13,501 bases of DNA from a virus (Duplodnaviria > Heunggongvirae > Uroviricota > Caudoviricetes), in the IMG/VR virus record IMGVR_UViG_2734482784_000005, positions 1 to 13,501 of that record. One strand, written 5' to 3'. Made by a program: the position numbers and the translations under genes. This document shows, piece by piece, positions 1-10,518 of the stretch (position 1 is its first letter; the number at the start of each line of letters is the position of its first letter). The notes under the pieces were generated by a model. That model saw only the letters and a list, made by a program, of their open reading frames with translations. It did not search any database and was not told the DNA's origin.

Positions 1-393
1 TCATATTACTGGATAATCATCATCATCCTTCCCTATCCGATTGATAACGAATGTCACTACCCCGACAACTGTAACATCATCCAGGGCCTCACCTTCCAAC
101 GCTTCACCGTCTCGTGTAATAAATGCCCGGCCCATAATTTTTGCAAAATCAGTGCCGCCGCCGTATTGAATTAAAACGGTATCTCCTTGCTTTGGTTTTA
201 CGAAGCAATCCACTACGGCATAGCCGGTTTCTGTTTGTACTATCCGAGTATTGGGGCCGGTACCGCAGAGTGAATCAACGGTCAGACGCCGTTCAACATA
301 GTCAGCAGCTGGCGACGGAAATCCCACGTTATAGCCCTCCGTTTGGGTTGTATAACTGGAACGTGAGCTCATCGCCTTCCTGCGTTGAGACAT
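1..393 (-). CDS. UmuD-like (peptidase S24 family) protein, 130 aa, divergent
   Basis: Complete ORF (ATG at 393..391, stop at 3..1). Contains GFPSPAADYVE at residues 24-34, matching the cleavage-site region of UmuD/MucA/RumA as I recall it, and a C-terminal GDTVLI...FAKI...VVGVV pattern resembling the S24 fold. I could not find a canonical GDSM serine motif by eye. Sits 9 nt downstream of the 403..560 ORF, which follows a LexA box. Confidence 0.5.
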   Translation of the reverse strand: MSQRRKAMSSRSSYTTQTEGYNVGFPSPAADYVERRLTVDSLCGTGPNTRIVQTETGYAVVDCFVKPKQGDTVLIQYGGGTDFAKIMGRAFITRDGEALEGEALDDVTVVGVVTFVINRIGKDDDDYPVI

Positions 394-402
394 CCCGGAA
401 TG

Positions 403-560
403 TCAGTGCTCTATCCACTGGTTAGCCTGGCGCGGTGACCATATCCAGTTAACTTTTGCGAGTTCCCGGATAAAACCGGACGTTGTCACGGTGCGACGGC
501 CATTAGGCTCAATGACAATTGCCTGACGCCAGGCTATTTCGATATCTGAGTTTCGCGGCA
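403..560 (-). CDS. small hypothetical protein, 52 aa, first gene of a LexA-box-controlled operon
   Basis: ATG at 560..558 preceded by GGAGGTGAAGTT (strong Shine-Dalgarno, about 7-nt spacing). The longer track ORF (to 606) would place the start codon inside the LexA box, so the internal ATG is preferred. No family recognised. Confidence 0.45.
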
Positions 561-579
561 TAACTTCACCTCCCGAAAA

Positions 580-599
580 TACTGTTTTTATATACAGTA
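580..599 (-). promoter_or_regulatory. LexA operator (SOS box)
   Basis: Plus strand reads TACTGTTTTTATATACAGTA; minus strand reads TACTGTATATAAAAACAGTA. This is a perfect CTGT-N8-ACAG palindrome fitting the enterobacterial LexA consensus, 19 nt upstream of the ATG at 560. Confidence 0.7.
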
Positions 600-1103
600 G
601 ATTCATTAAGAGATCTGATCAATACAGGTTCCAGCTATCAATCAGGAACACTGAGGAGGAAACCAGTCACCTTTTAGCCTCTGATATTGGTTTCACTTAG
701 TGATTATGTTGTCTATGTGCCAACTATGAACTATCTTTTCTCAAAACCTGCTACTGCAAAATGGATATAAGATGTCACAGACGGACTTGCTGATTGTTGT
801 TTTTACTCTGGGCATTTTAGCCTTTGGCTATTCCATATGGTTCATTTCGAACAGAATACTTTGCTCTATATTTCATAGACTTACAAAGAATATATGAATT
901 GGGATGGTATAGACCCAAATTCATGGTCATTGCCCCTCGACGTCGGAAGGTACTTACAGATCATCTTCGCTCTTAACCTATCACATCGGCACCTACTCCA
1001 TGATGTAACAGCTCAGACCAGAAATATCTGGAAGCTTTAGGCATATTCTTGGAAGATAGACGAGCGCAAAGACGCACACAGCAATGATGTTATGTAGTAT
1101 TTT

Positions 1104-1135
1104 CCCCTTGAGTGTGCCTGCTCAAGGGGGTTTTT
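1104..1135 (+). terminator. rho-independent terminator (plus-strand orientation)
   Basis: Stem CCCCTTGAG (1104-1112), loop TGTGCCTG, stem CTCAAGGGG (1121-1129), then G plus TTTTT (1131-1135). On the minus strand the hairpin is followed by A-rich sequence, so the plus orientation is favoured. Confidence 0.55.
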
Positions 1136-1172
1136 ATCGCCGTATTGTACTGGCAAATATTTGTAAATAGTC

Positions 1173-1201
1173 TTCACCCCCACGCCTGTCACATCGGCCA
1201 C
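1173..1201. repeat. direct repeat copy A (displaced invertase 3-prime end)
   Basis: TTCACCCCCACGCCTGTCACATCGGCCAC matches 1751-1779 at 25 of 29 positions. On the minus strand it encodes VADVTGVGVKTIYKYLP, a second copy of the invertase C-terminal HTH. Confidence 0.7.
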
Positions 1202-1219
1202 ACGCGACTGGACAGGCGG

Positions 1220-1642
1220 TTAGTCCGGTATGTTTCTCGCGCTACTACTGCTTACGTTAACGTCTGGTAATGATCTAGCGGCGCGACGTAAAGCGGCGTT
1301 GAAAGCAATTATAGTGACCGGCCGGCATTGGTACTTCACACGGTTAGAATGGCTCTGAAATAAAAAAACATCTTCTGGATAGCGTTCTCTTCTACGAGCA
1401 ATGATCCCCTCCACTGGAGGGGTTGATTTAACACGTAGCTCCTTCAGGTGACCCTGTTTTCGTATCAGTATCAAGTCACCATCAATATCATCATATCGAA
1501 TACTCAGCAGCCTTCCAGCGCTTAAACCCGTGTGAAAAATTAACGCCCACAAGTCAGCCCATGTATCTGAGATGGAAACAAGATTGCTGTTAATAGTTAA
1601 AAATTGCTCAAAACTTATTGTTTTCTTACCGTTCACGAACAA
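1220..1642 (-). pseudogene. tyrosine recombinase-like fragment (FimB/phage-integrase-like), no ATG start
   Basis: 140-codon ORF with no methionine codon anywhere (the track start is TTG). The TGLSAGRLLSIRYDDIDGDLILI segment resembles the box I region of tyrosine recombinases, but the downstream His/Arg/Tyr catalytic region is missing. Confidence 0.4.
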
Positions 1643-1719
1643 ACCAAACTGTTTTCAAAGCTGAATGAATTGATTAAGCCAAACGTAACATATCAGGAAA
1701 AGTAGTGAAATCTTTGCCT

Positions 1720-1932
1720 TCAAGTCGCCGGGAGGTACTTGTAGATTGTTTTCACGTCCACGCCTGTCACATCAGCCACCTGCTGCCGGGTAGCGCCGTT
1801 CTCCAGCATTCTGCGGCACCGCTCCACCACTTCTTCAGTCATTATCCGGCGGCGGCCGCCGACTCTCTCCTGCTCCATCGCTGCGGACCGACTCGGATGC
1901 ATTCGGCAAATTCTAGGCCGTGATTTTTCCAA
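1720..1932 (-). pseudogene. Hin/Gin/Pin-family serine DNA invertase remnant (C-terminal HTH only)
   Basis: GGRRRIMTEEVVERCRRMLENGATRQQVADVTGVDVKTIYKYLPAT aligns well with the C-terminal DNA-binding domain of Hin/Pin as I recall it (GGRPRAIT...GHPRQQLA...STLYRYFPA). The N-terminal catalytic domain is absent and the ORF begins with a non-ATG codon. Confidence 0.55.
1751..1779. repeat. direct repeat copy B (inside invertase remnant)
   Basis: TTCACGTCCACGCCTGTCACATCAGCCAC; partner of 1173-1201. Confidence 0.7.
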
Positions 1933-2713
1933 TCCTCTCCATCAGATATGCCAGGATGACATCCAGTGTGCTGGTCCCATATGCATATTTGCCGGGGAAA
2001 ACCAAACATTCTGACAAAACGGATGTTAACGGAGACACTGAACCATTGCCTGCTCCGCCAATACTCATTTTTTGAGACGGGCTATACGCTGGGATTGTAT
2101 AGCCCGTCACTTGTCGGCTGGTCACTGCAGACTGATCTGACCGCTGGTATGCAATTGCATAGGATCCAGCAGCCTTGTTAGAGCACATAACTACAGCGCA
2201 GAATAAAGATTGCCCTATATTGTTAGGAGTAAATGCCAGATCGGCCTCGATCCCTCCATTCAGAAAAATCGGGAATGAACCTGCTGACGTTGTACGAATG
2301 CCGACGCCATGAGGTGTGCTTTCCTGGGTTGCGATAACCGCTCTGTCCTGTGGCGTAGCCGGAAGCGCCCCACCTGGCAGCTGATAGATGAATGCAAAAG
2401 TATTGATGTTTGCGTCCATAACCACCGCCGTATCACCAGCCATGCCGGATGCACCGGAGAAATTAAGCCCCTGCAAAACAGAACCATTCAGCTTTGTGGA
2501 TGGCTCGAGGGTCTCCAGTGACTTGAAAAGTCCGCCATCTAATCGGTTAGAGATAGCTACTACTTTTGCACCAGACCCCATTTTTAGAAACTCTGTCTTC
2601 ACTGGTGTCCATACTGATGGGGATAGTTCTGAGATCGCTTTCTCTGCCGCTGTTTGTGAGTACACAGGGAGTAAGGGGTTATTCAGTCCAGTTAGTGTGT
2701 AAATCAGTCTCAT
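1913..2713 (-). CDS. hypothetical protein, 266 aa, cotranscribed downstream of the tail-fibre-like esterase gene
   Basis: ATG at 2713 preceded by GAGGA; starts 10 nt after the stop of the 687-aa ORF. No family recognised; Gly/Ser/Thr-rich. Confidence 0.55.
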   Translation of the reverse strand: MRLIYTLTGLNNPLLPVYSQTAAEKAISELSPSVWTPVKTEFLKMGSGAKVVAISNRLDGGLFKSLETLEPSTKLNGSVLQGLNFSGASGMAGDTAVVMDANINTFAFIYQLPGGALPATPQDRAVIATQESTPHGVGIRTTSAGSFPIFLNGGIEADLAFTPNNIGQSLFCAVVMCSNKAAGSYAIAYQRSDQSAVTSRQVTGYTIPAYSPSQKMSIGGAGNGSVSPLTSVLSECLVFPGKYAYGTSTLDVILAYLMERIGKITA

Positions 2714-2722
2714 TTTTTATCC

Positions 2723-4786
2723 TCAGAAAACGTTAATACGAAAAGCGGGGAGCCAGTCGTAAAGAGTCACGGATGTGTCATACACCCATATGATTCCAGC
2801 GGAAGATCGAACACACCCTCTTGCACCAAGAGTCCGCCCGGAAGGTTTTACAGATGCGCCGCTCTGAAGTGGGTTTTCTGCTGTCGCATAGGAAACGCGC
2901 CCAAAACGTCCAGAGGGGGCGGTCGCCAGGTTAATCAGCACGCCCTTGCCGTCCGAGCTGATCGCGATGCTCGATATAGCAGGTGGAGCACCAGTCTCAT
3001 CCGTGTAGCTAAAGCCGTAATTGGCCAGACCGGAGGTGTTGATCGTAGTCGTGTCCAGCACCAGGTTCGTATACGCTGGGACATTGATTTGTATCTGCGT
3101 GGGTGAGTTCCACACGAAACTGGTCGGAACCATCCCTGACCAGCCGCTCGTAAACCACTCCTGGAGAAGCGCTCTCGCCACAGCTGCTCCGCGCCGGTTC
3201 TGGCCCGCACACGTCAAGTGCAGACCGTCTGAAATAAAATCGTACTGGTACAAACTATTGACCAGCCTGAATTGCTCTTTTCCGTGCAATCGCGTCGACG
3301 CCAGTCGCGCGTACTGGCCTGTAAATGCACCATGCCCGTCATTGACATACCCCAGCTGGGTAATGGCGATAATCGGCGGTTCGTTTTGACCCGTTCTTGC
3401 GATGATGTCGCTGGTGATTTGTCTCTGGTACTGCCTCATCCGTGATTCATACATTCCTTCTCGTAATCCTGACCAGTCCTCGTCGGACTCTCCCTGCATC
3501 CAGTCAACGCAGAGAACAATCGGCAGCCAGCCGCGTGCTTTACAGGCCGTTACGCAGTCTTCGATTGAATCGAGCAGATACTGATATACCTGGTTACCCC
3601 GTTTCTGGTACTCGTAAGCCTGACCAGACTGCGCACATACGATTGATAGCGTGCGCGGCATGATTCCGGTAGCTGCAGCCATATCGCGAATGAAGGTGTT
3701 CGCGAGGCCGCTTGCGGCCGTTTCTTTATCTGTCCCACTTACTGCCTCAACCAGTGGCACCAGAGTAGTGCTGCGTGTCCCTGTACGCCTAACCCCGCCG
3801 CTGAGCATGAAAGCGTTATCAGGATATATCGGCGTTGCTGCGACAATGGTTTGATCGGCGTCAGGACAATATCCTCGAGCGTTGGATTGCCCAGCAGTCA
3901 CAAAGATAAAACATACAGGCACTGTCTCTGAGTAGGGGTACACAGTAGACCCTGACAAATGAAGTCCATACTCAGGGAGCTGGTTGGCATCATCGTCGCC
4001 ACCACCACCGCCATTTCCGTTATTAACAGCTACCAGGCCACCGTCTGAGTAAATCCAGTGCTTCCCACCAACCGTATAAGCTTCAACGATCTGGTTTGTG
4101 GTTGAATCAACCGTCATCCGCCACACTTTTTCACCGCCAATAAACTGCGGTATAGAACCCTCCCGGCCCAGCGCATAGAGTTCGGATTCTTGTTGGGTTA
4201 AAAGTTCGTAATATTTTCCGTCAGGACCGATTTGAATTAATCTGCCGCTTGTATTTAAAAATGGAGCCACGCGGGAAGTCTCCGGATCATATGCTGCCAG
4301 GGTCACGCTGTCTGGCGATACCTGGTATGCGTAGTCGTCACGAACCATCCGCCGTCCGGTTGGCTGCAGCGTTCCAGCGAGGTTGATATACTCATCGGCC
4401 AGAGAGCTTCCGTCCTGACTGCGGACATAGGTTGTTGAACCTGCCGGAATATTCGCAATATCCGCCTGCGCCGCCGCCAGCGTCATGTACTGCCGGCTGA
4501 GAGGGATCAGGTTTTGGCGGGCTTCATCAATAACAGCGTCGGTAGCAGCTGCCATTTTTTTAGTAGCCCCAATTATCGTATCCTGGGCGTTACCAAAACG
4601 ATCTATAAAAGTATCGCTTTCGCTGTTCAGGAAATCATCGTACGCCAGGGCGTTATCATTCAGATCCTTCATGCTATTTGAAGGTCTTGGATTGCCGGTA
4701 TTATATCTTTTGTCCATACCTGTTCCTGTCTTCATCTTTTCAATGAAGCAATTAAGATTGACGCCCCGCCCCTTCAGGGCTAACAT
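2723..4786 (-). CDS. phage tail-fibre/tailspike-like protein with central SGNH/SASA-type carbohydrate esterase domain
   Basis: Long ORF. AGQSNARGY (GQSN motif typical of the SASA/sialate-O-acetylesterase SGNH family) and a downstream DGLHL (DxxH) motif. A long N-terminal region and a C-terminal beta-rich region fit a receptor-binding tail protein. Start is uncertain: ATGs at 4786, 4735, 4717 and 4672 are all possible; the 4717 ATG has AGGAACAGGT upstream. Confidence 0.6.
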   Translation of the reverse strand: MLALKGRGVNLNCFIEKMKTGTGMDKRYNTGNPRPSNSMKDLNDNALAYDDFLNSESDTFIDRFGNAQDTIIGATKKMAAATDAVIDEARQNLIPLSRQYMTLAAAQADIANIPAGSTTYVRSQDGSSLADEYINLAGTLQPTGRRMVRDDYAYQVSPDSVTLAAYDPETSRVAPFLNTSGRLIQIGPDGKYYELLTQQESELYALGREGSIPQFIGGEKVWRMTVDSTTNQIVEAYTVGGKHWIYSDGGLVAVNNGNGGGGGDDDANQLPEYGLHLSGSTVYPYSETVPVCFIFVTAGQSNARGYCPDADQTIVAATPIYPDNAFMLSGGVRRTGTRSTTLVPLVEAVSGTDKETAASGLANTFIRDMAAATGIMPRTLSIVCAQSGQAYEYQKRGNQVYQYLLDSIEDCVTACKARGWLPIVLCVDWMQGESDEDWSGLREGMYESRMRQYQRQITSDIIARTGQNEPPIIAITQLGYVNDGHGAFTGQYARLASTRLHGKEQFRLVNSLYQYDFISDGLHLTCAGQNRRGAAVARALLQEWFTSGWSGMVPTSFVWNSPTQIQINVPAYTNLVLDTTTINTSGLANYGFSYTDETGAPPAISSIAISSDGKGVLINLATAPSGRFGRVSYATAENPLQSGASVKPSGRTLGARGCVRSSAGIIWVYDTSVTLYDWLPAFRINVF
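4758..4786 (+). promoter_or_regulatory. putative sigma-70 promoter for the HTH/acyltransferase operon
   Basis: TTGACG (4758-4763), 17-bp spacer, TAACAT (4781-4786); upstream of the 4819 start. Confidence 0.35.
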
Positions 4787-4818
4787 CGCCTTACGTGTTT
4801 AAACGGTTAAATAAGAGA

Positions 4819-5082
4819 ATGATTTTAATAAATAAATACACCCCTCCAACGCAGGAAGATTTAGCCAGACTGAAATCCGCACTAAATTACTCCGGAAACC
4901 AAATGGCAGGGCTCGCAGGTGTAGCCAGCGATAGCCAATGGCGGAAATACACTGGCGGAGAGAGCCCCAGGGTAATGTCAAGACACATACTGTTTTATAT
5001 TGCAGCTCAGCTTGTTCTGTCTGATGAGCAACTTAACAATGTAATAAATAAAATGCGCGATATTGGCGCGGAGATAAAATAA
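4819..5082 (+). CDS. small XRE-like HTH protein, 87 aa
   Basis: ATG at 4819 (the track start at 4795 is GTG). The segment NQMAGLAGVASDSQWRKYTGGE resembles an HTH_XRE recognition region. Its stop overlaps the acyltransferase start (TAATG). Confidence 0.5.
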   Translation: MILINKYTPPTQEDLARLKSALNYSGNQMAGLAGVASDSQWRKYTGGESPRVMSRHILFYIAAQLVLSDEQLNNVINKMRDIGAEIK

Positions 5083-6173
5083 TGCTTGGCCTAATAAGGT
5101 TTTTTTTGGCATCGTGCGTCATTGCTTTTCACTTAACGGCTCGCATACCTGCACTTGGCAACTTTGCAGTGAATTGCTTCTATGTTATTAGTGGTTTTTT
5201 AATAACATACATTTTGCATGAAACATACAAGTTCAACTTCTCTATGTTTTGGAAAAATAGAATACTGAGGTTATTCCCGGCATATATATTTTTTCTCGTC
5301 ATGGGCTTTCTTATTATAAAATTAATTCCATCCGCAAAGGAATTCCACTCAAACTGGACAGGCAATTTCTTACCTGGAGATTTATTAGGAAACCTCTTAA
5401 TCTTCCCCTGGGCTTTCCTTTCTGATAATGCTGTAGCAAATCCATTCGGTGCCTTTTCATCCATTTATCACTTTGCTATTGATGGTAATAGATTCAGAAT
5501 AGTCACATCATCATGGTCAGTGGGTGTTGAGATAACATGTTATTTTTTATTGTGGCTTTTCATAGCCCGAAATAAATTTACAGCCATTACGTCGATTCTG
5601 CTTTCACTGCTTTATCATGCTTACGTATATGTAGTACACCATTCTTTTGATATGGCGTATTTCCCATTCCTTGCTGCAACACTTCCTTTTAGCATGGGTT
5701 CTCTGGGTTATTTTGCCCATAGAAAGTTCAAAGCTATGTATCTTTCTCCACACAAAGCTTTTTTAATAACATTTATTTGCATCGGGATTTTTATTACCAA
5801 TTGGCATTTATATACAATTAATCCATTAGGTCAGTACAACATAATACTTTACTACACCAATAATGTAATAGCATTGTTTACAACCCTGGTATTATTAAAA
5901 ATAAAGACAAACATACATCTTGAGAAAATACTCAAGTGGTTTGGTGACCTGGCCTATCCAATTTTTCTTTGTCAATATTTTGGTGGATTTCTAGCATGGC
6001 TTGCTATTGGTGGTGAAAATCGTGGCTTATCCATCTTTTTATTAGGCTACCCAATATCAATTGCACTTGGGATCGTTTGTGTAATATTAATAGACAAGCC
6101 ACTAATTAAAATTAGAGCAAAAATAAGGGCGGACGCTCAAAGCAAAAATAATCAGGAAAACTCTTCAAGGTAA
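5082..6173 (+). CDS. acyltransferase family 3 integral membrane protein (O-antigen/polysaccharide O-acetyltransferase-like, OafA/Oac type)
   Basis: 363 aa, multiple hydrophobic helices, NCFYVISGFLITY (the FxxISGF motif of the acyltransferase-3 family), RBS GGAGA 8 nt upstream. Markedly AT-rich relative to flanking genes. Confidence 0.8.
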   Translation: MLGLIRFFLASCVIAFHLTARIPALGNFAVNCFYVISGFLITYILHETYKFNFSMFWKNRILRLFPAYIFFLVMGFLIIKLIPSAKEFHSNWTGNFLPGDLLGNLLIFPWAFLSDNAVANPFGAFSSIYHFAIDGNRFRIVTSSWSVGVEITCYFLLWLFIARNKFTAITSILLSLLYHAYVYVVHHSFDMAYFPFLAATLPFSMGSLGYFAHRKFKAMYLSPHKAFLITFICIGIFITNWHLYTINPLGQYNIILYYTNNVIALFTTLVLLKIKTNIHLEKILKWFGDLAYPIFLCQYFGGFLAWLAIGGENRGLSIFLLGYPISIALGIVCVILIDKPLIKIRAKIRADAQSKNNQENSSR

Positions 6174-6994
6174 ACTAAACCATTCGCTCCTTTTCCTGAT
6201 GAATAGTTACCATTCCCCCCGGCACCACCTGAGCCGGGGAAACCGCCATCATCGCCAGAACTACCGAAGTGGCCATTGCCACCCGTTGATGAAAATGCAG
6301 CTCCTCCAGCCCCGCCAATAAAAGCATCAGAACCATAATACAGACCACCTTGAGATATTCCGCCAGTAATATTTAAAATGTTCCCGCCACTTCCGATACC
6401 TCCAGCAGGAACTGTAGCCCCGCCACCACTCCCTCCAGTAGCTGAGATTAAACTCCCGAACCTTGTATCACCACCATTCCCGCCTTTAGACGAGACACCA
6501 GCAGCAACAGCACTGCCACCAGTACCTATCGTCACAGATATAGTTTCGTTATCAGAAATATTAAATAACCCTTCCGAAAATCCACCAGCACAACCTCCAG
6601 ATGCGCCCACACTAACTGGAGCATTCTGGCCACCTCCCCCCGCTCCCCAAACTTTCACCCGCACTCTTTTCGTCCCTTTAGTTGGAGTGTAAGTCCCTGA
6701 CTTAGTAAAGGTGACAATATTAAGCAGGCGACCGCCACCAATCGCTTTAAGAACCTGTGAATCATCATCAGGATCAAGCTCAAGCCCCGCGCCCTCAACA
6801 ACGTTTATGTGAACCTCGGCCAGATCTGAGGATGGCCGGGGAACGGCCCGCAGTTGCTCAATAATCGCCGCTCTCGCTGCCTGCTGGAACTTGCGCCCTG
6901 TCTCGCTTACCAGATGCCTGCCTTTCAGCGGTCCCTTGCTCGGGGCGCGCCAGTAACTATTTACGCTCGGTGGAAATGGTAAAGTCAGTTTCAT
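6152..6994 (-). CDS. RusA-like (Holliday junction resolvase family) N-terminal domain fused to a glycine-rich C-terminal region, 280 aa
   Basis: N-terminus MKLTLPFPPSVNSYWR matches the RusA signature (LPWPPSNNRYYR in E. coli RusA). The C-terminal ~170 aa are Gly-rich low complexity. Strong RBS AAGGGGG upstream of ATG 6994, and only 9 nt after the dam-like stop. Confidence 0.6.
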   Translation of the reverse strand: MKLTLPFPPSVNSYWRAPSKGPLKGRHLVSETGRKFQQAARAAIIEQLRAVPRPSSDLAEVHINVVEGAGLELDPDDDSQVLKAIGGGRLLNIVTFTKSGTYTPTKGTKRVRVKVWGAGGGGQNAPVSVGASGGCAGGFSEGLFNISDNETISVTIGTGGSAVAAGVSSKGGNGGDTRFGSLISATGGSGGGATVPAGGIGSGGNILNITGGISQGGLYYGSDAFIGGAGGAAFSSTGGNGHFGSSGDDGGFPGSGGAGGNGNYSSGKGANGLVYLEEFS

Positions 6995-7003
6995 TTAGCC
7001 CCC

Positions 7004-7843
7004 TTAAAGGATCGCTACAACGTCTTTTGCGACTTCCCGCGTACTGCTTTTGCAGGAGATCGAACGGCGCGCGTTGATGAATTGCAGGTTAAAACCATGC
7101 TCCCGGTACAGGTCGAGAACCTTCGGTGCAGATGAGTTAGAAATCACTACCCGAGCCCCACGGTGAAAGGCTGATACGCATTGCTTCGCCAGGTCTACCT
7201 GGTTCTCCCAGTTAAAACCACCAGCGGCGTAGGCGGTGAATCCGGTTGTTCCCGGCATCGGTTCGTAAGGCGGATCGCAGTAAACCACATCCCCTTTCCC
7301 GGCCAGGCTGATTGTCCGGCGGTAATCAGCCGTCATGAATACGCAGTTATGCGCCATAGCCGCGAAGGCTTTCATCTCATCCATCGGGTAATACGGAGCC
7401 TTGTAGCCTCCCCAGCCCACATTGAACTTGTTCGCCTGGTTGTAGCGCATCAGACCATTGAAGCAATGCCGGTTGAGATACAGGAATGCAGCTGCGCGTT
7501 CAGTAGCATCCAGCGTCTGAGAGTTGAACTCGGAACGGATCAGCTCATAGCGCTCTGGTGACCGCATGTGCTCGAACATCCAGCGGGCCTTCAATTCCAC
7601 TTCATCCGGCACGACCGCTAACATCTGATACAGATTAATCAGGTCCGGGTTAACGTCCGCCAGCAGGTAATCTGCGTGCTTTTCGCTGTTCAGGAATACC
7701 GACCCACCACCAACGAATGGCTCTACACGAACTGCACCGGCCCTGCTCCACCAGGAACTGGCCGCGCTACAAGTTGCGACCTGCGGTATTGTGTTGATAA
7801 ACTGTTCATGCGTTAGTAATCTCCACTGATAACGGCACGCCAC
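7004..7843 (-). CDS. DNA adenine methyltransferase, Dam/D12 class
   Basis: EPFVGGGSVFLN (motif I, FxGxG) near the N-terminus and VVYCDPPY (motif IV, DPPY) near the C-terminus, in Dam order. There is no in-frame ATG upstream of motif I, so the start is either GTG at 7843 or the gene is damaged. Confidence 0.75.
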   Translation of the reverse strand: MACRYQWRLLTHEQFINTIPQVATCSAASSWWSRAGAVRVEPFVGGGSVFLNSEKHADYLLADVNPDLINLYQMLAVVPDEVELKARWMFEHMRSPERYELIRSEFNSQTLDATERAAAFLYLNRHCFNGLMRYNQANKFNVGWGGYKAPYYPMDEMKAFAAMAHNCVFMTADYRRTISLAGKGDVVYCDPPYEPMPGTTGFTAYAAGGFNWENQVDLAKQCVSAFHRGARVVISNSSAPKVLDLYREHGFNLQFINARRSISCKSSTREVAKDVVAIL

Positions 7844-9363: not shown

Positions 9364-10518
9364 ATGGAAAACTTCAAAGTACGTCTTAAAAATCACATTG
9401 AACATGTTAAAAATGTTAGAGAACACTGCACAACGGAAGAGACAACCAAGCAGGCTTTGATACTTCCTTTTTTGGACATCCTAGGCTTTAACGCATATGA
9501 TCCGCAAAAAGTCAAAGCTGAATATGGTGCGGACTTCCCTGGTGTGAAAGTGGGTGAGCGTGTAGATTATGCTCTATTCTGCCAAGGTGTTCCCGTTATG
9601 TTTATTGAGGCCAAAGGTTGTAAAGAAAAAATGGACAACCATTGTCCTCAATTATCTAGGTATTTTAATTCTACTCCTGAGGTGACAATATCAGCAATTA
9701 CTAATGGAATTGAATGGCGCTTTTTTACGGATCTCAATGAAAAAAATATAATGGATTCAACGCCATTTTTACGAATCATGATGGATGACATTAAAGATTC
9801 TGATGCTGAGCAATTATTTAGATTCCGCCATGACAAATTCAAACCAGAGGCCCTAAGAACCCTTGCAGAAGAGAGTGTTTATATTTCTGCATTTGTTAAA
9901 GTCGTGAGTACAAGCCTTCGGGAAGTAGATCATGAATTTGTTAGATATGTTGCAGGACGAGCAAATATTGGTCGTCAATTAAATCAAAGATTTATAGAAA
10001 CAATAACTCCATTGGTGAGGCAGGCCGTAGAGAGGTCAGTAAGTGAAATGGTTGTTTCTGGTCTTTCATCAAGAACATCTATTCCTGAATTAGAATCCCC
10101 TGCTGATGTAACTGAAAATAATGTAATTGATGAGCGCGCAGATATTGTCGATGCAGAGAACCCCAACATAGTAACAACCTATAATGAAAGAATTTTATTT
10201 GAAAAAATCTGTTCTATTATAGGCCCTGCATACGAACTTCAAGCCAAAGATACAGAGTCCTATTACTCTATTCTTTTCCAAGGAAAAACAAACCGCTGGC
10301 TGGTTCGCTATTATGACAAGAAGAATCGCTCAAACATACAGTTACCAATTGATATCAATGAAATAACCGGTAATGAAATTAAAAGAGCCGGACTTGAACA
10401 TGATAACAATCGTATTTTCATTGAACATCCCGAGGATGTATTAAGGATTTCAGGTTTAATCCTTGATTCTTTACAATATGTACAGAATGATGAGAATTTC
10501 AGAAAGCGTCGTCCATAA
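9364..10518 (+). CDS. standalone HsdR-N-type PD-(D/E)xK nuclease domain protein, 384 aa, with uncharacterised C-terminal domain
   Basis: ATG at 9364 preceded by GGAGGA. N-terminal ~130 aa follow the type I restriction HsdR N-terminal nuclease pattern: TKQALILPFLDILGF ... RVDYALF ... VMFIEAKG ... QLSRYF ... ITNGIEWRFF (D...EAK...Q..Y..TNG..W). AT-rich. Located between the cI-like gene and the pL/OL-like site. Confidence 0.7.
   Translation: MENFKVRLKNHIEHVKNVREHCTTEETTKQALILPFLDILGFNAYDPQKVKAEYGADFPGVKVGERVDYALFCQGVPVMFIEAKGCKEKMDNHCPQLSRYFNSTPEVTISAITNGIEWRFFTDLNEKNIMDSTPFLRIMMDDIKDSDAEQLFRFRHDKFKPEALRTLAEESVYISAFVKVVSTSLREVDHEFVRYVAGRANIGRQLNQRFIETITPLVRQAVERSVSEMVVSGLSSRTSIPELESPADVTENNVIDERADIVDAENPNIVTTYNERILFEKICSIIGPAYELQAKDTESYYSILFQGKTNRWLVRYYDKKNRSNIQLPIDINEITGNEIKRAGLEHDNNRIFIEHPEDVLRISGLILDSLQYVQNDENFRKRRP

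What the first reader, a model, noticed from the sequence alone, without database searches (positions are those of the whole stretch)
1150..1932. Two recombinase remnants around a duplicated invertase 3-prime end
The invertase C-terminal HTH coding sequence occurs twice in the same orientation: copy B (1720-1790) completes the invertase remnant, and copy A (about 1150-1205) lies just after the stop of the tyrosine-recombinase-like fragment, in the same frame, encoding VADVTGVGVKTIYKYLP. The copies differ mostly at synonymous positions. A ~570-bp segment carrying an ATG-less tyrosine recombinase fragment sits between them. This pattern fits an old insertion of a small integrative element into the 3-prime end of the invertase gene, regenerating the target end and displacing the original, followed by decay of both recombinases. 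The missing invertase catalytic domain implies that any tail-fibre switching is now frozen.
Basis: seen in the sequence. Interest (0 to 1): 0.5.

Follow-up and report, generated by a model that had tools for sequence, protein, structure and literature searches.

The report
Stacked invertase-end scars around a pseudo-recombinase gene
At the tail-fibre end of an E. coli HS prophage, a beheaded DNA-invertase gene is followed by an intact, conserved small gene for a catalytically dead tyrosine-recombinase-like protein and by two leftover invertase 3' ends: ordinary phage mosaic scars, not a decayed mini-integrative element.

Summary
The repeat is real: 1158-1201 and 1736-1779 are 84% identical direct repeats 578 bp apart.

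Copy B ends a 5'-truncated serine invertase pseudogene, which has no catalytic domain and no crossover sites, so tail-fibre switching is indeed frozen in HS. Copies A and C are true relics of two other invertase alleles. Each still carries the native downstream flank seen behind intact invertase genes elsewhere.

The "tyrosine recombinase fragment" is not a decaying remnant. It is a complete member of a conserved phage family of about 138-145 aa (PHROG 19751). The evidence:
- dN/dS of 0.11-0.19 against Klebsiella homologues
- a tyrosine-recombinase catalytic-domain fold, but with the C-terminal ~45 residues (including the nucleophile Tyr) missing in every member
- occurrence without flanking repeats, for example as gp25 next to attP in phage HK544

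The module B-ORF-A-X-C is fixed and widespread: 83 of 116 phage contigs scanned carry it. About 45% of contigs with the B-ORF-A arrangement have a full-length invertase.

Best reading: two nested module replacements by microhomology-mediated illegitimate recombination. Homologous recombination between the relics followed, and hybrid and deletion forms are seen. The invertase truncation came later and is shared by only one scanned contig.

It remains unexplained why the relic boundaries cluster at one codon.

The parts
1720..1886 (-). 5'-truncated serine DNA-invertase pseudogene. Only the last ~55 codons are left (linker plus HTH_7 domain), ending ...VADVTGVDVKTIYKYLPAT*. The upstream junction to the tail-fibre module lies at about 1886-1890.
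   Evidence: Pfam HTH_7 E 1.9e-9; PHROG 125 DNA invertase, profile positions 142-202 of 254. PGAP pseudogene 'missing N-terminus' at L001 13721-13885 = window 1720-1884. Alignment to full-length relatives breaks at about 1886.
1727..1779 (-). Copy B: the invertase gene's own 3' end (B-type allele).
1637..1719 (-). Spacer of about 80 nt between the invertase stop and the small gene. It is not homologous to the sequence upstream of the same gene in other contexts.
1220..1636 (-). Intact gene for a 138-aa protein (GTG start at 1636; the mechanical ORF runs from TTG 1642). It belongs to PHROG 19751. It has the tyrosine-recombinase catalytic-domain fold but lacks the last ~45 residues (His, Tyr nucleophile). 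The Arg I position is Ser, and HxxR is SSAR.
   Evidence: 161 homologues of 130-150 aa. dN/dS 0.11-0.19. AF2 pLDDT 86.9. Foldseek to lambda Int, XerA and S. aureus Int, E 1e-5, TMq 0.70-0.75. PHROG 19751 E 5e-46 and phrog_1 integrase E 2.4e-8. Alignment with full-length ~187-aa relatives.
1202..1219 (-). 18-nt joint between the stop codon of the small gene and relic A. It travels with A even where the gene is absent (L101).
1147..1201 (-). Copy A: relic of the last ~18 codons of an A-type invertase allele (intact form: ...KTIYKY(F/L)PVQYGDKKSP*).
993..1146 (-). Segment X: the native downstream flank of the A-type invertase. It holds the last codons of that gene, now frameshifted. It also holds a GC-rich hairpin at 1103-1130 that reads as an intrinsic terminator on the + strand.
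   Evidence: 72% identical over 220 nt to the invertase end plus flank of K. michiganensis L005 4569-4787. Aligned with L013 and L012. Terminator scan.
940..992 (-). Copy C: a third, degenerate invertase 3'-end relic with stops in frame and a B-like 3' part. It marks the start of the variable cargo region.
   Evidence: Pattern match with 3 mismatches against 0.01 expected. nhmmer E 4e-8. Comparison with intact C-type genes. Sequence classes jump from 2 to 12 right after C.

Best explanation
Window 940-1932 (minus strand) is the seam between the tail-fibre/invertase module and the variable cargo region of an E. coli HS prophage. It records two nested module replacements and one later truncation.

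1. An ancestor carried a Gin/Pin-type serine invertase with a C-type 3' end, directly followed by cargo.
2. Recombination with another phage brought in a complete A-type invertase with its native flank X. It joined 52-55 nt before the stop of the resident gene, leaving relic C.
3. A second event of the same kind brought in a complete B-type invertase followed by a small accessory gene. It joined at the same point of the A-type gene, leaving relic A in front of X and C.

The joints carry 4-8 nt microhomologies, so they were probably made by illegitimate recombination (inferred). Only short relics persist, because long direct repeats would be removed by homologous recombination (inferred). The relics then act as short homology anchors. 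Hybrid relics show that cassettes are deleted or the downstream cargo is swapped by homologous recombination within them (shown).

In the HS lineage a later replacement of the tail-fibre module removed the invertase catalytic domain, the part of the gene that carries the enhancer-like sequence in relatives, and the crossover sites. The fibre is therefore fixed in one orientation (shown).

The small gene is not a wreck. It encodes a conserved, catalytically dead half of a tyrosine-recombinase catalytic domain. It most likely acts as a DNA-binding or recombinase-interacting accessory protein of temperate phages (inferred; function untested).
For: Repeats and third copy.

Relics match intact genes including their flanks:
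- C plus about 60 nt downstream is near-identical to the 3' end and flank of intact C-type invertases (L025, L110, L114).
- A plus X equals the end and flank of intact A-type invertases (L013, L042) and, at 72%, of the K. michiganensis invertase.

All intermediate states exist:
- a single C-type gene
- inv_A-X-C without the small gene
- B-ORF-A-X-C

The three-copy module, with spacings of 578 and ~210 nt, is in 83 of 116 IMG/VR loci. 41-42 of 94 B-ORF-A loci have a full-length invertase frame with the GYARVST motif. About 49 are truncated, at 20 or more different points. Crossover sites are present beside intact genes and absent from the window.

A and B differ at 8 synonymous and 2 non-synonymous codons. 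This means they diverged as working genes in different phages.

Microhomology at the joints:
- native continuation of X, GGTTGC, against invertase GGTAGC
- native 3' flank of the small gene, CTGGCA (L005) or CCGGTAGCCGTATG (L138-L140), against invertase CAGGT(G/A)GCCGATG

Hybrids: L126 has an A/C hybrid with X deleted. L042 and L112 have a B/A hybrid without the small gene. L010 has an A/D hybrid.

Sequence diversity jumps from 2 to 12 classes right after C.

Small gene:
- family of 130-150 aa across many clusters below 50% identity
- dN/dS 0.11-0.19
- fold
- missing catalytic residues
- occurs next to attP in the functional phage HK544, directly behind a Pin-type invertase (L134), and next to an integrase (L138/L140)
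Against: - The left boundaries of relic A, of relic C and of an unrelated relic in L142 fall within about 3 nt of each other, at codon VADV. This is more than simple random illegitimate joining predicts. A hot spot or a site-specific step is not excluded.
- The microhomology argument rests on 'native' comparators that are only 70-80% identical. No close donor was found.
- The order of the events is inferred from nesting, not from a dated phylogeny.
- The function and expression of the small gene were not shown. No sigma-70-like promoter was found in 850-2050.
- HS differs from the 96%-identical phage copy L003 by 4 non-synonymous and 0 synonymous changes. These are small numbers, but they are compatible with recent relaxation in HS.
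Confidence: 0.6

Rival explanations
1. A small integrative element encoding its own tyrosine recombinase integrated site-specifically into the 3' end of the invertase gene. It carried a replacement 3' end (B) and displaced the original (A). Afterwards both recombinases decayed.
For: - Direct repeats flank a 578-bp segment.
- B completes the gene, and A is a displaced original end with its native flank.
- Empty sites exist (L013, L042).
- The first 22 nt of A and B differ once, the next 30 nt ten times, which resembles a core plus arms.
- The enclosed protein has the tyrosine-recombinase fold.
Against: - The enclosed gene is a full-length member of a family that is 130-150 aa long everywhere. 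The family lacks the Tyr nucleophile everywhere and is under purifying selection.
- It occurs without flanking repeats in HK544, K. michiganensis and L134.
- The same kind of relic pair (A-X-C) encloses no gene at all.
- The 5' 22 nt are the most conserved part in all invertase alleles, so the identity gradient is not specific to this pair.
- The invertase is intact in about 45% of loci with the same arrangement.
Confidence: 0.1
2. The ~52-nt invertase 3'-end motif is a true recombination site, cassette-like and analogous to attC or att. A recombinase not identified here, possibly assisted by the small pseudo-recombinase, stacks cargo cassettes at it downstream of the invertase gene.
For: - Left boundaries of independent relics (A, C, L142 relic 2) coincide within about 3 nt.
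- Other cargo is also bracketed by relics: TIR_2 with DUF7736 in L139/L141, and a colicin-immunity-like gene in L142.
- Mosaic breakpoints coincide with relic ends.
Against: - No candidate recombinase is linked to the motif.
- The small protein cannot catalyse strand exchange.
- The motif has no dyad symmetry of the kind recombinase sites have, and no similarity to the invertase crossover sites.
- Other relic boundaries are scattered: -30, -12, -11 and +9 to +20, with many further upstream.
- Hybrids are explained by ordinary homologous recombination.
Confidence: 0.1
3. The copies arose by tandem or segmental duplication in place within this prophage, followed by drift.
For: The copies share orientation and lie close together.
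Against: - The segments between the copies are unrelated to each other.
- Each copy matches a different intact invertase allele elsewhere, including that allele's own downstream flank.
- A and B differ 8:2 synonymous to non-synonymous, so they diverged under coding selection.
Confidence: 0.03

Closest known systems
Gin/Pin/Cin/Hin-type tail-fibre inversion modules of temperate phages (Mu gin, P1 cin, e14 pinE), with an accessory gene just downstream of the invertase (mom in Mu, mcrA in e14). This comparison is from my own knowledge.
   Same: Relatives of this locus have a ~183-aa Resolvase+HTH_7 invertase. They carry 26-bp crossover sites of the TTCGCnnnAACCnnGGTTnnnGCGAA type about 60 nt upstream of the gene, and opposed tail-fibre segments. 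Non-essential cargo follows the invertase.
   Different: In HS only the last ~55 codons remain and no crossover site is left. Three 3' ends are stacked. The gene following the invertase is a pseudo-recombinase, not a modification or restriction gene.
MrpR (YopR) of Bacillus phage SPbeta: a tyrosine-recombinase-fold protein that has lost recombinase activity and acts as a DNA-binding master repressor (PMC10516654).
   Same: A phage-encoded protein with the tyrosine-recombinase fold and no recombinase chemistry. This is a precedent for a regulatory or DNA-binding role.
   Different: The protein here is much shorter: only the first two thirds or so of the catalytic domain, with no core-binding domain. 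It is unrelated in sequence as far as tested. It is not placed in the immunity region but at the tail-fibre/attP end. DNA binding is untested.
Integrative elements that insert into the 3' end of a gene and carry a replacement end (tRNA-targeting islands; e14 and phage 21 in icd). This comparison is from my own knowledge.
   Same: The gene end is duplicated. The proximal copy completes the gene, and the distal copy is the displaced original. Empty sites exist.
   Different: There is no functional integrase in the inserted segment and no defined identical core. One of the two inserted segments (X) has no gene. The joints look like microhomology joints.
Mosaic 'novel joints' in lambdoid phages, made by illegitimate recombination at gene boundaries and then shuffled by homologous recombination. 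This is the Hendrix-lab model from the HK97/HK022 comparisons, and is from my own knowledge.
   Same: Sharp homology breaks lie at gene ends, short conserved patches are reused as crossover points, and the cargo between tail fibres and attP is variable.
   Different: Here the scars are stacked copies of one gene's 3' end, with a shared left boundary. That is not a standard feature of such joints.
Catalytic-domain-only tyrosine recombinases of about 185-190 aa (remote relatives P0160, P0197, P0204). They give weak matches to the XerA models and to the FimB/FimE-type 'tyrosine-type DNA invertase' models.
   Same: They share the FQSHSNR and SxHSxR motifs and the first ~135 residues.
   Different: Those proteins keep the R, K, HxxR, H and Y residues and the last ~45 residues. 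The family here has lost them.

Membership tests
Serine recombinase, invertase subgroup (Resolvase PF00239 + HTH_7 PF02796) | C-terminal HTH_7 DNA-binding domain | tested here: met
   Pfam HTH_7 E 1.9e-9, 37.9 bits against a cut-off of 23.8, on ORF 1720-1932.
Serine recombinase, invertase subgroup (Resolvase PF00239 + HTH_7 PF02796) | N-terminal catalytic domain with the serine nucleophile (GYARVST motif) | tested here: not met
   Homology to invertases starts at about 1886, and the upstream sequence is unrelated. PGAP annotates a pseudogene. Full-length relatives have the motif.
Serine recombinase, invertase subgroup (Resolvase PF00239 + HTH_7 PF02796) | Pair of inverted 26-bp crossover sites flanking an invertible segment | tested here: not met
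   AAACCNNGGTTT with up to 1 mismatch gives no hit in the window, but is present beside intact relatives. No meaningful inverted repeats in 1800-7500.
Tyrosine recombinase / phage integrase (PF00589) | Catalytic-domain fold | tested here: met
   AF2 model with pLDDT 86.9. Foldseek against PDB: 3nkh, lambda Int 1ae9/1z1b, XerA 5hxy, E 1e-5 to 1e-4, TMq 0.70-0.75. phrog_1 integrase E 2.4e-8.
Tyrosine recombinase / phage integrase (PF00589) | Catalytic residues R-K-H-R-H/W and the tyrosine nucleophile | tested here: not met
   Alignment with complete ~187-aa relatives. Arg I is Ser in HS and variable in the family, the His of HxxR is Ser, and the last ~45 residues with His and Tyr are absent in all short members.
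Tyrosine recombinase / phage integrase (PF00589) | Match to the Pfam or NCBIfam family model above its threshold | tested here: not met
   No Pfam or NCBIfam family at E <= 1. No PDB sequence match from the family profile.
PHROG 19751 (phage protein family of unknown function) | Full-length match to the family profile | tested here: met
   E 5.3e-46, residues 7-137 on profile positions 5-135 of 140.
Site-specific integrative element (att-flanked, integrase-encoding) | Direct repeats of the target at both ends, and existence of empty sites | tested here: met
   Repeats B and A. Empty-site-like loci L013 and L042.
Site-specific integrative element (att-flanked, integrase-encoding) | Element-encoded functional integrase | tested here: not met
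   The only gene inside lacks the nucleophile, and is equally short in all relatives.
Site-specific integrative element (att-flanked, integrase-encoding) | Identical core at which strand exchange occurs | tested here: inconclusive
   The 5' 22 nt match 21/22 and the next 30 nt match 20/30. However, the 5' part is the most conserved part in all alleles.
Site-specific integrative element (att-flanked, integrase-encoding) | Excision as a circle | not testable with these tools
   This needs PCR or long reads on lysogens.
Inactive tyrosine-recombinase-fold DNA-binding regulators (MrpR-like) | Sequence-specific DNA binding without recombination | not testable with these tools
   Only the fold and the loss of catalytic residues could be shown. 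The precedent is PMC10516654.

The most novel reading that the evidence does not exclude
The last ~52 nt of this family of phage invertase genes could be a genuine recombination hot spot or site, at which cargo cassettes are stacked. Examples of such cargo are the pseudo-recombinase gene, TIR-domain genes, and colicin-immunity-like genes. The conserved catalytically dead tyrosine-recombinase-fold protein could be an architectural or regulatory partner of the neighbouring invertase or integrase. That would make this a cassette-capture system at the end of the tail-fibre module, rather than a pile of random scars.
Probability: 0.12. Interest if true: 0.65.

Novelty: new member of a known kind. 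Interest (0 to 1): 0.3.

Why it matters
For this window the result is mostly a correction. What looked like two dying recombinases is one dead invertase plus one intact gene, widespread and under selection, whose product has a recombinase fold but cannot recombine.

Two points could interest phage biologists:
- An uncharacterised family (PHROG 19751; HK544 gp25; thousands of Klebsiella copies) sits next to invertases, integrases or attP. Together with MrpR of SPbeta, it suggests that phages repeatedly reuse dead tyrosine-recombinase domains as DNA-binding or regulatory parts.
- The stacked invertase ends mark the exact start of a cargo hot spot. In relatives that spot holds retron reverse transcriptases, UmuDC, TIR and AAA_15 genes. 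The short relics offer a concrete example of homology anchors for swapping such cargo.

Neither point overturns current ideas.

Tried and rejected
- Pfam and NCBIfam scans of the small ORF gave nothing at E <= 1. A profile search of PDB sequences gave only a chance hit. Fold comparison was needed instead.
- PADLOC gave no defence-family hit for the ORF.
- Rfam gave no RNA family in 600-2100.
- The promoter scan found no sigma-70-like site in 850-2050. I looked by eye for a promoter inside the motif and found only poor hexamers.
- Invertase pseudo-site idea: the true crossover sites of relatives (TTCGCnnnAACCnnGGTTnnnGCGAA) have no similarity to the motif, so I rejected it.
- Chi-like octamer GCAGGTGG at the relic boundary: I considered it from the sequence, but the polarity of RecBCD/Chi action would preserve the wrong side. 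Rejected on reasoning only; not tested.
- Partial duplication of the resident integrase: profile comparison of the family with the neighbouring integrases of L010 and HK544 was not significant.
- The K. pneumoniae 'up' copy as an independent junction: rejected, because it carries the X-end CATCATGG and is therefore a copy of the X|C joint.
- The megablast break at 1885-1887, shared by phages L002 and L003, first looked like a common breakpoint. The alignment shows they keep more of the invertase and are truncated elsewhere.
- The genome-contig scan with the AT-rich 3' half of the motif returned almost only chance matches in AT-rich genomes. It added only four Raoultella loci with nothing new.
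- Context look-ups of distant family members mostly returned very short contigs, and one protein was not on record.
Full report
**Origin and map**

The window is E. coli HS chromosome (NC_009800.1). Window position x corresponds to locus L001 position x + 12001. It covers the tail, baseplate and tail-fibre end of a prophage that abuts yodB and a tRNA-like feature.

All features of interest lie on the minus strand. Reading in the direction of transcription:
- a tail-fibre gene (4786->2723)
- a 266-aa ORF (2713->1913)
- the invertase remnant (about 1886->1720)
- a 138/140-aa ORF (1636 or 1642->1220)
- UmuD-like remnants (606->1)

The 1-kb region is 100% identical in 14 complete E. coli genomes and is present in 52 of 5426. 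It is 95-96% identical in five E. coli and Klebsiella phage records.

**The observation**

The direct repeat is real and non-random:
- 1158-1201 against 1736-1779: 44 nt, 84% identical, 578 nt apart, BLAST E 5e-7
- in register, the homology runs 52-55 nt: A = 1147-1201, B = 1727-1779
- the copies differ at 8 synonymous and 2 non-synonymous codons

There is also a third copy, C, at 940-992 in the same orientation. It is degenerate, with stops in frame.

**The invertase**

ORF 1720-1932 carries a resolvase-type HTH_7 domain (Pfam E 1.9e-9) and matches the phage DNA-invertase family over its C-terminal quarter. Alignment with relatives shows that invertase homology begins at about 1886. Upstream of that point the HS sequence is unrelated. 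PGAP marks it as a pseudogene without an N-terminus.

Relatives with complete genes have 26-bp crossover sites of the Gin/Pin type about 60 nt upstream of the invertase start. They also have an enhancer-like sequence inside its 5' part. The window has none and no convincing inverted repeats.

This truncation is an event shared by only one other scanned contig, L018. Among 94 phage contigs with the same downstream arrangement:
- 41-42 have a full-length invertase frame with the GYARVST catalytic motif
- about 49 are truncated, at 20 or more different positions

Phages L002 and L003 are cut at other points than HS.

**The small ORF is a gene, not a fragment**

- Family: a sequence search found 161 homologues. 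Nearly all are 133-145 aa, at 60-96% identity, in Klebsiella, Raoultella and E. coli, with cluster sizes up to 1405.
- Depth: a profile search of 1.8 billion representatives found many further clusters below 50% identity and of the same length.
- Conservation: invariant motifs (SDTWxDLW, FQSHSNRVK, VTxIAFN, SSxSAR) run to the very C-terminus.
- Selection: dN/dS against Klebsiella homologues is 0.12, 0.17 and 0.19, at dS 0.8-1.7.
- Start codon: the HS copy starts with GTG (or TTG). This codon aligns with the ATG of the homologues, so 'ATG-less' is not a sign of decay.
- Fold: Pfam, NCBIfam and PDB sequence searches are blank. An AlphaFold model (pLDDT 86.9) matches tyrosine-recombinase catalytic domains: lambda Int, XerA, XerH, Cre, and an S. 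aureus integrase, at E 1e-5 to 1e-3 and TMq 0.60-0.75. PHROGs gives family 19751 (unknown function, E 5e-46) and, weakly, integrase phrog_1.
- Lost chemistry: the remote relatives are complete catalytic-domain-only recombinases of about 185-190 aa, with R, K, HxxR, H and Y. In the alignment the short family stops a few residues after the HxxR box, which reads SSAR. It has lost Arg I in most members and lacks the last ~45 residues with the nucleophile. It cannot be a recombinase.
- Not a copy of the neighbouring integrase: comparison with the adjacent integrases is not significant.

**Where the small gene is found**

It always lies at the tail-fibre end of temperate phages, in several settings:
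- behind an intact invertase in K. michiganensis, with an apparent arm-site array and host DNA just downstream
- behind an acyltransferase in K. pneumoniae
- between the tail fibre and attP in the functional lambdoid phage HK544, as gp25
- converging on an integrase in abgT-integrated prophages
- directly behind a Pin-type invertase in a ~35%-identical relative

Sequences upstream and downstream of it are unrelated between these contexts. In the K. michiganensis, HK544 and L134 contexts no invertase relic follows it.

**What the relics are**

- Relic C in most loci is nearly identical to the last 52 nt of intact C-type invertases (...VADVIGVGVKTIYKYFPAG*), together with about 60 nt of their downstream flank. 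The HS version is an older, degenerate variant.
- Relic A plus segment X equals the end and downstream flank of intact A-type invertases (...PVQYGDKKSP*; L013, L042). At 72% identity it also matches the K. michiganensis invertase.

All stages exist in phage contigs: invertase_C alone; invertase_A-X-C; and invertase_B-ORF-A-X-C. The last form, with constant spacings of 578 and ~210 nt, is in 83 of 116 scanned loci.

The A/B differences are synonymous-rich. This shows the copies diverged as parts of working genes in different phages before being brought together.

**How the structure arose and behaves**

At both joints the 'native' continuation of the incoming DNA, seen in other contexts, shares 4-8 nt with the invertase at the joint:
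- X continues GGTTGC in K. michiganensis, against invertase GGTAGC
- the small gene's flank reads CTGGCA (L005) or CCGGTAGCCGTATG (L138-L140), against invertase CAGGT(G/A)GCCGATG

This points to microhomology-mediated illegitimate recombination. It is an inference from 70-80% identical comparators.

Once present, the relics recombine:
- L126 has an A/C hybrid with X deleted
- L042 and L112 have a B/A hybrid without the small gene
- L010 has an A/D hybrid joined to a different downstream region

Pairwise homology between loci ends exactly at relic ends. The number of sequence classes rises from 2 to 12 immediately after C. C therefore marks the start of the variable cargo region. In relatives that region holds a retron reverse transcriptase, UmuDC and AAA_15. 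In L139/L141 and L142, TIR-domain and colicin-immunity-like genes sit between invertase relics.

**Unexplained**

The left ends of relic A, of relic C and of an independent relic in L142 fall within about 3 nt of one another, at codon VADV. Other relics end at -30, -12, -11, +9 to +20, or far upstream.

Selection against long direct repeats explains a bias towards the 3' end, but not the exact coincidence. I give about 10% to a real recombination site or hot spot.

The motif has no similarity to the invertase crossover sites. No Rfam family covers it, and no promoter-like site was found.

Correct:
- the repeat
- the two protein families
- the displaced original end
- the frozen switch

Wrong:
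- The enclosed gene is not the decayed integrase of a mini-element. It is a conserved pseudo-recombinase that also occurs without repeats.
- The arrangement is an intact gene pair in many phages.
- The invertase loss is a separate, later event.

**Comparison with known systems**

- The invertase part is a dead member of the Gin/Pin-type serine invertases. The HTH test is met. The catalytic-domain and crossover-site tests are not met.
- The small protein works at most 'like' the inactive recombinase-fold regulator MrpR of SPbeta (PMC10516654). Membership in the tyrosine recombinases fails on the catalytic residues.
- The stacked relics resemble target-end duplication by integrative elements, but the integrase criterion fails. 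They fit the mosaic-joint picture of lambdoid phage evolution (my own knowledge).

**Novelty and score**

This is an unannotated but ordinary kind of structure, with one uncharacterised, widespread protein family and one unexplained boundary coincidence. Interest 0.3.

Noticed in passing
In most related loci this copy is nearly identical to the end of intact C-type invertase genes.
   Followed up: yes
window 1-606 (-): A UmuD-like ORF (PHROG 3469, E 7e-49) and a frameshifted 'DNA polymerase V' remnant annotated by PGAP. This is decayed umuDC-type cargo between the invertase relics and the prophage end. Relatives carry intact UmuD/UmuC at this position.
   Followed up: partly
window 1103-1130 (+): A strong GC-rich hairpin followed by TTTTTAT. 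It reads as an intrinsic terminator on the + strand, that is, against transcription entering the invertase end from the cargo side. It is part of the native flank X of A-type invertases.
   Followed up: partly
L002 4333-5817; L012 6311-10417; L142 6034-8426: The cargo right after relic C differs between relatives: a retron-type reverse transcriptase, UmuDC, and an SMC/AAA_15 protein. This looks like a defence/moron hot spot that begins exactly at the relic.
   Followed up: partly
L139/L141 2219-3640; L142 3147-3622: Other cargo is also bracketed by two invertase 3'-end relics, in lineages with a different organisation: a TIR_2 protein with DUF7736, and a colicin-immunity-like gene.
   Followed up: partly
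L005 5510-5570: Four copies of TTGGGGCA, spaced 11-14 nt, lie just downstream of the small gene and next to host DNA in K. michiganensis. They look like integrase arm-type binding sites of the att region.
   Followed up: no
L012 ~5705-5750 and L138-L140 ~4447-4480: Hairpins with the same loop (CCGTATGCAAGA) but different stems. One lies downstream of C-type invertase ends, the other downstream of the small gene. They could be a conserved structured element or terminator with covarying stems.
   Followed up: no
L018 ~9800-10031: This phage contig has exactly the HS-type 5' truncation of the invertase (LEKSRPRICRMHPSRSAAMEQ...) but only a single C-type end, with no small gene. It is either the ancestor of the HS arrangement or a deletion derivative.
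   Followed up: partly
L007 1194-4645: In one K. michiganensis genome the tail-fibre/invertase region upstream of the small gene is replaced by two IS26-like transposase genes flanking a beta-lactamase gene.
   Followed up: no
window 1220-1636 versus L003 4112-4528: The HS copy of the small gene differs from the 96%-identical Klebsiella phage copy by 4 non-synonymous and 0 synonymous changes. The numbers are small but unusual for a family with dN/dS below 0.2.
   Followed up: no
window 2723-4786 (-) and 5082-6173 (+): The tail-fibre gene is annotated as sialate O-acetylesterase (SGNH type in relatives). An acyltransferase-family gene lies on the opposite strand just upstream. These are surface-glycan-modifying functions next to the frozen switch.
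   Followed up: no
L001 11670-11806 (outside the window, ~200 nt beyond its start): PGAP annotates a 137-nt 'tRNA-OTHER' between yodB and the prophage end. It is probably the attachment-site tRNA with a partial duplication.
   Followed up: no
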